The notes beneath the pieces were generated by a model. That model saw only the letters and a program-made list of their open reading frames with translations, ran no database searches and was not told the origin of the DNA. Below, in pieces: positions 9,567-9,953 of a DNA stretch of 64,000 bases (position 1 is its first letter; every line of letters begins with the position of its first letter). Origin of the DNA: a virus; IMG/VR virus record IMGVR_UViG_3300028831_000585, positions 1 through 64,000 of that record. One strand, given 5' to 3'. The position numbers and the translations under genes are program-made.

Positions 9567-9629
9567 ACCGTACCCCCAATCGCTCCGTTGCGCAACGCCG
9601 TTGCATGAGCGAGTCTCTGGGGGTACACT
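9567..9629. promoter_or_regulatory. Divergent promoter pair around a GCAAC-GCC-GTTGC palindrome; the rightward transcript is leaderless
   Basis: Minus-strand -10 TACGGT at 9567-9572, palindrome at 9592-9604, plus-strand GGGGG-TACACT at 9619-9629. The 9636 ATG lies exactly 12 nt after the first base of the -10. Confidence 0.7.
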
Positions 9630-9635
9630 TAGGGT

Positions 9636-9878
9636 ATGACGCAGGAAGCCGCAGCCATCGAGATCTACAACGCAGCCACGCCGGGTGCCTGGAACAGTCT
9701 CGCCGACATCCAGCAGGCGACCGGCCTCACGCAGGCCGAGTTGCAGGCGGGCGTGCAGTGGTGGATGCAGGCCGAGGACTTCCGCGCCGAGCCGGAGAGC
9801 CACGGCCGCCGCGCGGCCACGCAGGTCGCCGTGATCATCGGCGGCGAGCCCCGCCACCAGATCCGCTTCGCCGAGTAG
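9636..9878 (+). CDS. Hypothetical 80-aa protein, possible winged-helix DNA binder
   Basis: Track ORF with a leaderless start; LADIQQATGLTQAELQAGV segment. Confidence 0.6.
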   Translation: MTQEAAAIEIYNAATPGAWNSLADIQQATGLTQAELQAGVQWWMQAEDFRAEPESHGRRAATQVAVIIGGEPRHQIRFAE

Positions 9879-9914
9879 GCCGCCCCGCCCCGTTGGAGCG
9901 GGGCATTGTCGCGT

Positions 9915-9953
9915 GCAACGGTGTTGCGCACAGAACCACTCTGGGGGTACAGT
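9915..9953 (+). promoter_or_regulatory. Rightward leaderless promoter of the shared type
   Basis: GCAAC-GGT-GTTGC at 9915-9927 and GGGGG-TACAGT at 9943-9953; ATG at 9960 is 12 nt from the start of the -10. Confidence 0.65.

What the first reader, a model, noticed from the sequence alone, without database searches (positions are those of the whole stretch)
9567..9953. Element-wide promoter/operator: GCAAC-N3-GTTGC palindrome 26-27 bp upstream of GGGGG-TACNNT, giving leaderless mRNAs
Copies with near-identical geometry:
- 1360-1422 (divergent pair)
- 8812-8850 (leftward)
- 9567-9629 (divergent pair)
- 9915-9953 (rightward)
- 40462-40499 (rightward)
- looser versions at 15335-15411 and 2088-2122

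In both divergent pairs the palindrome centre is equidistant (26 bp) from the two -10 hexamers.

For three genes (9636, 9960, 40506) the ATG begins exactly 12 nt after the first base of the TACA(C/G)T hexamer. That predicts leaderless transcripts.

Each GTTGC half lies 17 bp from the -10 and could serve as a -35. The strict palindromy at unidirectional promoters suggests a dimeric regulator binds there, whether a repressor over the -35 or a class II activator.

The invariant G5 tract abutting the -10 is not a standard actinobacterial promoter feature. The same 8-mer reappears at the putative origin.
Basis: seen in the sequence. Interest (0 to 1): 0.65.

Follow-up and report, generated by a model that had tools for sequence, protein, structure and literature searches.

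The report
Phage-wide promoter with palindromic operator
An uncultivated 68 kb actinobacterial phage starts nearly all of its operons from one stereotyped promoter whose -35 sits inside a perfect palindrome, most likely the binding site of a single phage regulator that switches the whole genome on or off together; this is a familiar kind of phage control in a previously undescribed phage family.

Summary
There are seven copies of GCAAC-N3-GTTGC-N13/14-TGGGGGTAC(A/G)(C/G)T, against 0.00 expected. An eighth copy, at the early-operon switch, has the dyad one helical turn further upstream. All eight lie in intergenic DNA and point at genes. Three genes start exactly 6 nt after the hexamer, which is the leaderless geometry.

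Nine related metagenomic phage genomes separate the motif into two parts. The -10 block plus a TTGCNN -35 at 17 bp occurs across the whole family and reads as a principal-sigma (HrdB-type) promoter with a G-rich extended -10. The upstream GCAAC half, which creates the palindrome, occurs only in the window's clade, where all 16 promoters examined have it, including unidirectional ones.

That clade also shares an identical putative recognition helix (TRAG[L/I]TNWA) in a conserved ~100 aa protein (14973-15281) encoded divergently from the early operon. A prospective test on a new contig passed 3/3.

Best reading: a dimeric phage repressor occludes the -35 at every promoter. The link to the origin 8-mer is not supported, because the origin repeats do not co-vary with the promoter block. 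No transcript or binding data exist.

Side findings: a TraB/clt conjugation module and tRNA genes with anticodon-loop inserts.

The parts
1360..1371 (-). P1L: -10 block TGGGGGTACGGT. Predicted +1 at 1353. A 22 nt leader with SD leads to gene 921-1331 and the genes downstream.
1385..1397 (.). Dyad GCAACAGTGTTGC shared by the divergent promoters P1L and P1R. Its centre is at -38 for both.
1411..1422 (+). P1R: -10 block TGGGGGTACAGT. Predicted +1 at 1429. A 29 nt leader leads to a 51 aa CxxC zinc-ribbon gene (1458-1613), followed by a strong hairpin.
8812..8850 (-). P2L: dyad 8838-8850 plus block 8812-8823 (N14). It heads the long leftward operon 8767 to ~1694, which contains the HTH_17 gene and the TraB-like translocase.
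9567..9629 (.). Divergent pair P3L and P3R. P3L block 9567-9578 (-) drives the DUF2637-like gene 8915-9496 through a conserved 64 nt leader. The dyad is at 9592-9604. P3R block 9618-9629 (+) drives the leaderless gene 9636-9878.
9915..9953 (+). P4R: dyad 9915-9927 plus block 9942-9953 (N14). It drives the leaderless gene 9960-10232 and then 10256-10624.
15351..15411 (+). Early-operon switch. It has an imperfect dyad A (15351-15363), a perfect dyad B (15363-15375) and the block TGGGGGTACACA (15400-15411). The dyad centres are at about -61 and -49. Predicted +1 is 15418, and the early operon starts at 15436. The same N24 geometry is present in L014 and L027.
40462..40499 (+). P6R: dyad 40462-40474 plus block 40488-40499. 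It drives the leaderless gene 40506-40898 at the head of the rightward block that runs into the terminase, portal, capsid and tail genes.
14973..15281 (-). Lead candidate for the dyad-binding regulator. It is a 102 aa protein with a TTG start and a good SD, encoded divergently from the early operon and conserved in all relatives. Its putative recognition helix, TRAGLTNWA, is shared only by genomes that carry the dyad.
9636..9878 (+). Alternative candidate regulator. It is an 80 aa leaderless gene with an HTH-like segment. It is present in the window and L014 but absent from the equivalent position in L027.
2088..2120 (.). Two degenerate dyads (GCAACAGTGATGC at 2088-2100; GGCACCCCGTTGC at 2108-2120) between genes of the P2L operon, with no -10 block. 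This is either a decayed site or an internal operator.
31383..31394 (+). Weaker, dyad-less copy of the -10 block (TGGGCGTACAAT) upstream of gene 31421-31762.

Best explanation
The composite is a promoter fused to an operator.

(1) Promoter. TGGGGG-TAC(A/G)(C/G)T is a G-rich extended -10 (TANNNT). TTGC(R)(Y), 17-18 bp upstream, is the -35 of a promoter read by the host's principal sigma (HrdB/SigA type). This promoter is the standard promoter of a whole family of ~66-71 kb actinobacterial phages. Transcription is predicted to start at the conserved A, 7 nt after the hexamer. This gives leaderless mRNAs for 9636, 9960 and 40506 and short SD-bearing leaders for the other genes.

(2) Operator. In this phage's clade the -35 has been built into a perfect 5-3-5 dyad centred at -38/-39. 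The dyad is the operator of a phage-encoded dimeric DNA-binding protein. Bound there, the protein would block sigma region 4 and so repress seven transcription units at once. These units are the TraB-like transfer operon, small accessory genes and the operon leading into the virion genes. At the early switch two abutting dyads sit at -49 and -61, between the early promoter and the regulator's own gene.

(3) Binder. The most likely binder is the conserved ~100 aa protein 14973-15281, a weakly MerR/HTH_17-like winged helix.

Status of each step: the sequence pattern, its statistics, its conservation and the covariation are shown. Sigma identity, start sites, binding and the sign of regulation are inferred.
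For: Promoter:
- All eight copies are intergenic and point at genes with strong GC3 bias.
- The block is conserved across relatives whose proteins are only 40-55% identical: L016 x5, L023 x10 in 20 kb, L024, L026. In those genomes it is paired with cTTGCGs, or even canonical TTGACA, at 17 bp and has no palindrome.
- Across lineages the block drifts (TGGGTGTACAGT in L018, TGGGAGTACAGT in L026, TAGGCGTACAGT in L015), but A-11 and T-7 and the whole of ACAGT stay fixed. That is the HrdB signature (PMC6344877), and GG at -14/-13 is enriched there.
- TACAGT-N6-ATG recurs in L001, L014, L015/L020 (x3), L018 and L023 (x2).
- An A is conserved at the predicted +1.

Operator:
- 16 of 16 promoters in the window, L001, L014 and L027 carry a perfect dyad at N13/14, while the intervening spacer has ~0 information. 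Eight of them are unidirectional, so the palindrome is not just two back-to-back -35s.
- Other lineages carry different symmetric elements at the same place, for example CGCTA-N5-TAGCG in L015.
- The same core promoter works without the upstream half-site in relatives, which argues against an obligatory activator.

Binder:
- The 9-residue helix TRAG(L/I)TNWA is identical in the four dyad-clade proteins and different in all six others.
- Prospective test: P0157 has that helix, and its contig L027 then showed 3/3 promoters with perfect dyads.
- The gene sits at the divergent early switch next to two dyads in all three clade genomes.
- Weak alignments of helix plus wing to MerR-type CarA (2jml, E=0.1) and to the phage's own HTH_17 protein.

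Need for repression: the P2L operon contains a TraB homologue (NF041214, E=1e-87), and unregulated traB is lethal in Streptomyces plasmids (Kil-Kor; PMC4447253).
Against: - There is no transcript, start-site or binding evidence. No RNA-seq run holds this phage.
- The candidate regulator has no significant Pfam, NCBIfam, PDB-sequence or fold match. AF2 mean pLDDT is 62, and Foldseek's best hit has E=1.6.
- The helix/operator covariation is confounded by phylogeny, because the dyad genomes form one clade.
- Two other clade-specific genes (13295-13861 and 13861-14145) and gp9636 also track the clade at least partly.
- No integrase or partition genes were found in about 75 proteins scanned, so a lysogenic or plasmid state in which a global repressor would act is itself inferred.
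- The window-clade motif can also be read as GTTGCR-N15-GGGTAC, which fits the SigB-homologue consensus (PMC8346170).
- The early promoter has a defective hexamer (TACACA) and upstream dyads at -49 and -61. That arrangement looks more like activation than repression.
Confidence: 0.5

Rival explanations
1. Activator cascade. The dyad-binding protein is a class II-type activator made early. The seven promoters with the dyad at -38 are middle/late promoters that it switches on. The early promoter, whose dyads lie at -49 and -61, is wired differently.
For: - The dyad centre at -38/-39 is near the class II position.
- The operon leading to the virion genes (40488) carries the dyad, whereas the early promoter has a distinct geometry conserved in three genomes.
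- The -35 (TTGCNN) matches TTGACA in only 3-4 of 6 positions.
- No integrase was found, so a purely lytic temporal programme is possible.
Against: - Relatives use the same -35/-10 core without any upstream half-site (L016, L023, L024, L026), so the core promoter probably does not need this protein.
- The dyad fully covers the -35, which is where sigma region 4 must bind.
- The TraB-containing operon is of a kind known to need repression (PMC4447253).
Confidence: 0.2
2. The motif is a promoter for a host SigB/SigF-type (group 3) stress or developmental sigma, read as GTTGCR-N15-GGGTAC, and not for the principal sigma.
For: S. coelicolor SigB homologues recognise GTTT/GNNT-N12-15-GGGTAC/T with invariant GGG and A at position 5. 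Starts lie 8-10 nt after the hexamer, which also fits the leaderless ATGs (PMC8346170).
Against: - In relatives the second G of GGGTAC changes (GTGTAC, GAGTAC, GCGTAC/GCGCAC), while the downstream AGT, which is irrelevant to SigB-type promoters, stays invariant, including T-7.
- The family-wide -35 is cTTGCGs or TTGACA, not GTTT.
- N15 is at the edge of the allowed spacer range.
Confidence: 0.1
3. A phage-encoded factor recognises TGGGGGTAC. The factor could be a sigma-like protein, an RNAP-binding protein or a polymerase. This would explain why a 12 bp block is far more conserved than a host -10 needs to be.
For: The block is 12/12 invariant across genomes with ~45% protein identity. Most phage genes are ORFans, so a novel factor cannot be excluded.
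Against: - No sigma, WhiB-like or RNAP domain was found in about 75 proteins.
- The one large unannotated protein is a TraB translocase, not a polymerase.
- The canonical 17 bp spacing to a TTG-type -35 and the TANNNT pattern are what host RNAP needs.
Confidence: 0.1
4. No dedicated binder. The palindrome is a relic of a duplicated ~63 bp divergent-promoter cassette, made of two back-to-back -35 elements, that has spread by recombination.
For: The divergent cassette is clearly duplicated with its spacers intact: window 1385 resembles L014 9892 and L014 17923. In the divergent pairs each half-site does serve as a -35.
Against: Eight unidirectional promoters in four genomes keep a perfect upstream half, while the adjacent spacers have diverged completely. 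A relic would decay at the same rate as the spacers.
Confidence: 0.07
5. One protein binds GGGGGTAC both at the promoters and at the origin-like repeats, coupling replication and transcription.
For: There are six GGGGGTAC copies, symmetrically arranged around an AT-rich core, at 30023-30236. L016's genome also has the same unit at both places.
Against: - L014's genome has TGGGGGTAC promoters but GGGGGAAC origin repeats.
- L015's genome has TAGGCGTAC promoters but GGGGGGTC origin repeats.
- The origin copies lack the T-7 of a -10.
Confidence: 0.03

Closest known systems
Lambda-type immunity switch: a dimeric repressor on dyad operators overlapping promoter elements, with its gene divergent from the early operon
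   Same: It has a dyad-symmetric operator overlapping the -35. The candidate regulator gene is transcribed divergently from the early operon, with tandem operators in between. Operator sequence and recognition helix change together between related phages, as heteroimmune groups do.
   Different: The operator is not confined to the switch. It is fused at a fixed distance to every promoter of the class, including the one leading to the virion genes. The candidate protein is ~100 aa with no recognisable Xre/cI domain or cleavage domain. No integrase was found.
Cluster A mycobacteriophage (L5) repressor with operators and stoperators (PMC9283540)
   Same: One phage repressor has many sites spread across the genome, so the whole prophage is silenced. 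Specificity evolves within the phage cluster.
   Different: L5 sites are more than 20 asymmetric 13-mers bound by a monomer through two domains. They are orientation-dependent, and many lie within operons where they stop elongation. Here the sites are symmetric, number 6-8, and all but one doubtful case lie at promoters.
Kil-Kor control of traB in Streptomyces conjugative plasmids (TraR/KorA; PMC4447253)
   Same: A long operon ending in a TraB-family translocase, with clt-like repeats downstream, is headed by a promoter carrying repeat or palindromic operator sites. Tight repression is expected to be essential.
   Different: The known Kor proteins are GntR-type and bind tre repeats at one intergenic region. 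No GntR protein was found here, and the same operator also controls phage genes.
Actinobacterial HrdB/SigA promoters and leaderless mRNAs (PMC6344877; S. coelicolor TSS maps, PMC4895711)
   Same: It has a TANNNT -10 with A-11 and T-7, G/GG at -14/-13, a weak TTG-type -35 at ~17 bp, and a start ~7 nt downstream that coincides with ATG.
   Different: The extended -10 is a full T-G5 run and is invariant. A 12-mer conserved across a whole phage family is much more stereotyped than host promoters are.
phiC31 conserved inverted repeats (CIRs) at early promoters. This comparison is from memory (Smith laboratory, 1990s) and was not retrievable in the paper library.
   Same: An actinophage with a repeated, highly conserved promoter class and repeated inverted-repeat repressor sites scattered through the early region.
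   Different: As recalled, the phiC31 early promoters do not resemble sigma-70-type promoters, and the repressor is a large multi-isoform protein. The details could not be checked here.

Membership tests
Principal-sigma (HrdB/SigA) actinobacterial promoter | -10 hexamer TANNNT with A at -11 and T at -7 | tested here: met
   7 of 8 window copies are TAC(A/G)(C/G)T, and the early promoter is TACACA. ACAGT is invariant across relatives even where the upstream Gs change.
Principal-sigma (HrdB/SigA) actinobacterial promoter | TTG-type -35 at 16-18 bp from the -10 | tested here: met
   TTGC(R)(Y) lies at 17-18 bp in the window. Relatives have cTTGCGs at 17 bp and one TTGACA at 17 bp.
Principal-sigma (HrdB/SigA) actinobacterial promoter | Transcription by HrdB holoenzyme, starting 6-8 nt after the hexamer | not testable with these tools
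   No RNA run holds the phage, and no host isolate is known.
Leaderless mRNA | Start codon at the position predicted for +1, with no room for an SD | tested here: met
   The ATGs at 9636, 9960 and 40506 lie exactly 6 nt after the hexamer. The chance expectation for GGTANNNT-N6-ATG is 0.23 per window against 3 observed. The geometry recurs in at least seven promoters of relatives.
Leaderless mRNA | Mapped 5' end equals the A of the AUG | not testable with these tools
   No transcript data exist.
Phage immunity repressor/operator system | Dyad-symmetric operator overlapping a core promoter element | tested here: met
   A perfect 5-3-5 dyad is centred at -38/-39 and covers the -35 at 7 promoters. 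16 of 16 promoters in four clade genomes have it.
Phage immunity repressor/operator system | Regulator with a recognisable DNA-binding domain | tested here: inconclusive
   gp14973-15281 has no Pfam or NCBIfam hit. The profile against PDB gives a MerR-type CarA DNA-binding domain at E=0.1. hhalign against the phage HTH_17 family gives P=0.008 and probability 5%. AF2 pLDDT is 62 with no fold hit.
Phage immunity repressor/operator system | Operator type co-varies with the regulator's recognition residues | tested here: met
   TRAG(L/I)TNWA occurs in 4 of 4 dyad-clade proteins and in 0 of 6 others. The prospective prediction on L027 was confirmed. Caveat: this is a single clade.
Phage immunity repressor/operator system | Lysogeny functions (integrase or partition) that define a repressed state | tested here: not met
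   No integrase, ParA or ParB was found in about 75 window proteins. About 4.2 kb of the genome was not seen.
Cluster A stoperator system | Asymmetric, orientation-dependent sites in large numbers within operons | tested here: not met
   The sites are symmetric, number 6 perfect copies, and lie at promoters. Only 2088-2120 is a possible intra-operon site.
SigB/SigF-type (group 3 sigma) promoter | -10 GGGTA(C/T) with invariant GGG and A5; -35 GTTT/GNNT; spacer 12-15 | tested here: inconclusive
   The window's clade fits as GTTGCR-N15-GGGTAC. The family-wide variants break GGG, and the -35 is cTTGCG.
MerR-type activation | Operator inside an over-long (19-20 bp) -35/-10 spacer | tested here: not met
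   The spacer is 17-18 bp, and the dyad lies over and upstream of the -35, not in the spacer.

The most novel reading that the evidence does not exclude
The dyad binder is a small, previously unclassified winged-helix protein that acts as the single master (Kor-like) repressor of a tailed phage that is also a Streptomyces-type conjugative element. Through one operator it silences the virion-gene operon, accessory genes and a TraB/clt DNA-transfer operon together. Turnover of the operator and the recognition helix defines immunity groups across a large, uncultivated family of ~68 kb phages of Micromonosporaceae-like hosts. The invariant T-G5 extended -10 makes these promoters independent of a good -35, so the -35 region is free to evolve as an operator.
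Probability: 0.25. Interest if true: 0.7.

Novelty: new member of a known kind. Interest (0 to 1): 0.5.

Why it matters
The finding gives a complete, testable regulatory map for a large family of uncultivated actinobacterial phages, seen as dozens of 66-71 kb metagenomic genomes. The map has three parts: one compact promoter (useful as a strong, portable part for high-GC hosts), one operator, and one short-listed regulator.

Related genomes carry the same core promoter with different or no operators. The family is therefore a natural experiment in how immunity specificities arise, by building an operator onto a -35 element. It also shows that sequence-only reading found a real regulatory element, and it shows where comparative data correct that reading (the origin link and the G-tract).

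The regulated operon includes a TraB/clt conjugation module inside a tailed-phage genome. If that module is functional, control of this promoter class decides between virion production and plasmid-like transfer.

Tried and rejected
- Megablast of 8000-20000 against phage and plasmid collections found no match. tblastn of gp8024 found none. The portal is only ~36% identical to Arthrobacter and Gordonia phage portals.
- The composite pattern scan of genome contigs gave mostly chance hits. The Streptomyces hits L006 and L009 share no homology with the window.
- The E. coli-type sigma-70 and terminator scan over 8700-10700 found nothing. This is uninformative for TANNNT promoters and for actinobacterial terminators that lack a U-tract.
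- The idea that the origin and the promoters share an 8-mer recognition element was rejected by the lack of covariation.
- gp5666-5860 (HTH_17) as the dyad binder is unlikely. The window and L014 versions are the most divergent pair (34%), and their helices differ.
- gp9636 as the binder was not excluded, but it is absent from the equivalent position in L027 and has no significant fold hit.
- The 767 aa ORFan as a phage RNA polymerase was rejected. It has no DxDGD motif, and it is a TraB-family translocase.
- RNA evidence: no RNA runs were found. The pieces from wastewater run X8 are short unrelated fragments.
- Structure prediction of both candidates followed by Foldseek gave no hit with E<1.
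- Exact look-ups of two of the window's own proteins failed, so the ~4.2 kb of the 68,190 bp contig that lies outside the window could not be read.
- L028 (Actinoplanes sp. URMC 104, 66.5 kb contig) is a different element with no motif.
- The YrlA (Y-RNA-like) explanation for the long tRNAs had only a sub-threshold hit (21 bits against a threshold of 69).
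Full report
WHAT THE WINDOW IS. The window is ~70% G+C. Genes were called by third-position GC bias and scanned against Pfam. Together these show a tailed-phage genome.
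- A leftward arm covers 157-9496.
- A few rightward accessory genes cover 9636-10624.
- A second leftward block covers 10682-15281.
- A rightward early operon starts at 15436. It encodes a YqaJ exonuclease, an RNase T-like exonuclease, an ERF recombinase, a C5 methylase, a beta clamp and a DUF3987 helicase/primase-like protein that ends at 30021.
- An origin-like region lies at 30023-30236.
- About 10 kb of small genes follow, including SSB.
- From 40506 a rightward block runs into small terminase-like, large terminase, Mu-like portal, capsid and tape-measure genes.

The window's own contig is 68,190 bp. L001 joins the window's right end to its left end through about 5 kb. No isolated phage or plasmid is close. 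The sequence occurs in freshwater and soil metagenomes. More distant DUF3987 homologues lie in Actinoplanes and Micromonospora genomes, which suggests a Micromonosporaceae-like host. This host assignment is an inference.

THE OBSERVATION. GCAAC-N3-GTTGC occurs six times exactly. TGGGGGTA-NNN-T occurs seven times, plus TGGGGGTACACA once. Seven promoter-like units have the form GCAAC-N3-GTTGC-N13/14-TGGGGGTAC(A/G)(C/G)T. In 300 dinucleotide-preserving shuffles the composite never occurred. The palindrome averaged 0.07 copies and the block 0.09. All copies are intergenic and point at a gene.

The dyad centre is 26 nt from both hexamers in the two divergent pairs and 26-27 nt at the unidirectional copies. 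The ATGs at 9636, 9960 and 40506 begin 12 nt after the first base of the hexamer. The other five promoters have leaders of 18-64 nt with Shine-Dalgarno sequences. Strong GC-rich hairpins follow 9878, 8915 and 1613 and bound the small units.

The copy at 15363 differs. The perfect dyad is 24 nt upstream of the block, with its centre at about -49. An imperfect dyad abuts it, centred at about -61. The site at 2088 has two degenerate dyads and no -10 block.

RELATIVES SPLIT THE MOTIF INTO TWO ELEMENTS. Homologues of the DUF2637-like gene 8915-9496 and of the small divergent gene 14973-15281 gave syntenic loci from nine other genomes: L001, L014, L015, L016, L018, L023, L024, L026 and L027. Extra loci L020-L022 came from three of the same contigs.

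(i) The -10 block is family-wide.
- L016 has five copies of TGGGGGTACAGT. L023 has ten in 20 kb. L024 has several. L026 has TGGGAGTACAGT, L018 has TGGGTGTACAGT, and L015 has TAGGCG(T/C)ACAGT.
- In these genomes the block is paired with cTTGCGs 17 bp upstream, and once with canonical TTGACA.
- What never changes is ACAGT, including A-11 and T-7. That is the signature of HrdB-type promoters (PMC6344877). The same paper reports about 2-fold enrichment of GG at -14/-13.
- TACAGT-N6-ATG recurs in L001, L014, L015/L020, L018 and L023, and an A is conserved at the predicted +1.
- I therefore read the block as a G-rich extended -10, and GTTGC(R) as the -35 of a host principal-sigma promoter.
- The window-clade motif can also be read as a SigB-type promoter, GTTGCR-N15-GGGTAC (PMC8346170). 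However, the family variants break the 'invariant' GGG while keeping bases a SigB-type promoter would not need, so this reading is a minor rival.
- No sigma, WhiB-like or polymerase gene was found. The one large unannotated protein turned out to be a TraB translocase.

(ii) The palindrome is clade-specific and under selection.
- Only the window, L001, L014 and L027 have GCAAC-N3-GTTGC at their promoters. There it is perfect in 16 of 16 cases at N13/14, while the 13-14 nt spacer carries no information.
- Eight of the 16 are unidirectional, so the upstream half is not simply the -35 of a divergent partner.
- L015's lineage has a different symmetric element (CGCTA-N5-TAGCG) across the -35 and spacer.
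- L018 has an imperfect GCTAC-N3-GTTGC.
- L016, L023, L024 and L026 have none.
- The same core promoter exists with and without the distal half-site. The half-site is therefore more likely part of an operator than an activator site that the promoter depends on.

WHO BINDS IT. A ~100 aa gene divergent from the early operon is present in every relative. Its C-terminal half reads ...TWEQIAYDL..GETVTRAGLTNWARRYGIP.DTR. AF2 predicts three helices there, at modest confidence (pLDDT about 76 locally and 62 overall).

The last helix is TRAG(L/I)TNWA in the four proteins from dyad genomes. In the six others it reads TRESIRHWA, TDQTLRKWA, TREGIRRWA, SDGSIRKWA, SDGTIRRWA or TEGTIRKWA. This allowed a prediction. 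P0157 has the window's helix. When its 8.5 kb contig (L027) was fetched, all three promoters on it had perfect dyads at N13, and the switch had the same double dyad at N24.

The fold assignment is weak. Pfam, NCBIfam and Foldseek found nothing. A family profile aligns helix plus wing to the MerR-type CarA domain at E=0.1, and to the phage's own HTH_17 protein at P=0.008.

The other candidates are less attractive.
- The HTH_17 protein 5666-5860 does not track operator type.
- gp9636 (80 aa; AF2 pLDDT 76; weak winged-helix-like hits only) is missing from the equivalent position in L027.
- gp13295 and gp13861 are clade-specific but do not look like DNA-binding proteins.
- A host protein cannot be excluded.

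HOW IT MOST LIKELY WORKS. Host RNA polymerase with the principal sigma uses the extended -10 and a modest -35, and starts at the conserved A. Three genes are then translated without a leader. In this clade a dimer of the phage regulator sits on the dyad at -38 and excludes sigma region 4. This shuts seven units together:
- 921-1331 and the genes downstream of it;
- the 51 aa zinc-ribbon gene;
- the long 8767-to-1694 operon;
- the DUF2637-like gene;
- 9636-9878;
- 9960-10624;
- the operon from 40506.

At the early switch the two dyads at -49 and -61 lie between a deliberately imperfect early promoter and the regulator's own gene. The hexamer there is TACACA in this clade, TACACC in L018 and CACAGT in L015. 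Whether this geometry means repression, autoregulation or activation cannot be told from sequence.

A repressor is also what the cargo calls for. The 8767-to-1694 operon encodes a TraB-family conjugative translocase, and unregulated traB is lethal in Streptomyces plasmids (PMC4447253). Against this, no integrase or partition system was found, so the silent state is itself inferred. The class II-type activator reading keeps about 20%.

THE ORIGIN LINK. The six GGGGGTAC copies at 30023-30236 flank an AT-rich core downstream of the DUF3987 gene. The same architecture (three units, AT-rich core, three inverted units) is present in three relatives. The unit is GGGGGTAC in L016's genome, GGGGGAAC in L014's and GGGGGGTC/TA in L015's. 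Their promoter blocks are TGGGGGTAC, TGGGGGTAC and TAGGCGTAC respectively. The two elements therefore evolve independently, and the shared 8-mer in this phage is not evidence for a common binding protein.

COMPARISON AND NOVELTY. Functionally this is a promoter/operator system of the lambda type, with the genome-wide reach of the L5 stoperator system (PMC9283540) and a likely Kor-like role. It fails the defining features of stoperators, which are asymmetric and lie within operons, and of MerR-type promoters, which have the operator in an over-long spacer. It is a new member of a known kind, in an undescribed phage family. Nothing about it requires new biology. The most unusual aspects are the invariance of the 12 bp block across deep divergence and the fusion of one operator to every promoter.

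LIMITS. There are no transcripts, no binding data and no host. The covariation rests on one clade. About 4.2 kb of the genome was not seen. The candidate regulator's DNA-binding fold is unproven.

Noticed in passing
window 3379-5682 (-) and 3230-3365: The 767 aa protein is a TraB-family conjugative DNA translocase (NCBIfam NF041214, E=1e-87). It has 4 TM helices, a Walker A GxTRxGKT and a Walker B-like hhhhHxxEAD, all conserved in every relative. Immediately downstream lie ~10 GTCAGG/CCTGAC repeats resembling a clt locus; relatives have 5-8 copies of CCTGACG(G/C)T. A tailed-phage genome family therefore carries a Streptomyces-plasmid-type transfer module. The one recalled precedent is the plasmid-phage pZL12, cited in PMC3583192.
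   Followed up: partly
window 14212-14360 (-) and 14603-14730 (-): Two tRNA genes carry 78 nt and 54 nt inserts in the anticodon loop (Rfam tRNA 39 and 48 bits; ARAGORN intron mode: tRNA-Ala(CGC)? and tRNA-Arg(CCG)). Default ARAGORN missed both. Relatives have normal tRNAs at the same place, plus orthologous insert-bearing ones (L014 5276-5422, L027 3103-3249, L026 10654-10785, L024 10825-10949). The insert is structured and conserved and is far too short for a group I intron. It could be an intron, or this could be a tRNA-like ncRNA.
   Followed up: partly
window 30023-30236: An origin-like region lies downstream of the DUF3987 gene. GGGGGTAC-A-GGGGGTAC-ATGTACCCCC is followed by an AT-rich core (ttatttaatatagttaatagtaaaacaatt) and then G12TAC-GTACCCCC-T-GTACCCCC. 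The architecture is conserved in L020, L021 and L022, with lineage-specific repeat units.
   Followed up: yes
window 9497-9560 (-): The 5' leader of the DUF2637-like gene is strongly conserved in six genomes (TATSAGCACGGCGGAGCGAACCGCA...CGTnGATCGCCCCC, with a GCGG-AGCGAA-CCGC hairpin), even though the proteins are only ~50% identical. This is a possible cis-regulatory RNA or protein-binding site.
   Followed up: no
window 21663-21702; L016 68-95, L023 4979-5006, L024 4758-4785, L026 4445-4472, L015 1259-1294: At the same map position after the ERF region, relatives have two -10 blocks back to back (ACTGTACCCCCATTATCGGGGGTACAGT). From memory, this resembles CsoR/RicR-type TACCC-N5-GGGTA operators. 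The window instead has a perfect hairpin, GTGTCCCCCC-N15-GGGGGGACAC (-31 kcal/mol), that encloses a TTGCGT-N17-TAGACT promoter-like site.
   Followed up: no
window 1360-1422; L014 9867-9929 and 17898-17960: The ~63 bp divergent promoter cassette, including its otherwise unconserved spacers (caaaccaatctgc / atcatga), is duplicated within L014 and shared with the window at a different map position. This suggests that promoter cassettes move by recombination and mark mosaic joints.
   Followed up: partly
window 1458-1613 (+): A stand-alone 51 aa protein with CxxCxGxG...CxxCxGxG (a DnaJ-type zinc-finger repeat) has its own operator-promoter and a very strong bidirectional terminator hairpin (1633-1672, -47 kcal/mol). 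It is shared only with L014.
   Followed up: no
L015 9348-10000; L018 4187-4800: Two relatives have 600-650 bp inserts with no gene call inside regulatory intergenic regions. L018's insert ends with a T-arm-like ggttcgagtccgg. Rfam at gathering threshold reported nothing there.
   Followed up: no
window 6898-7338 (-): A Phage_ProQ_C-like domain protein (PF24203, E=7e-10), a possible RNA chaperone, lies in the operator-controlled left operon. It is shared with L014 only.
   Followed up: no
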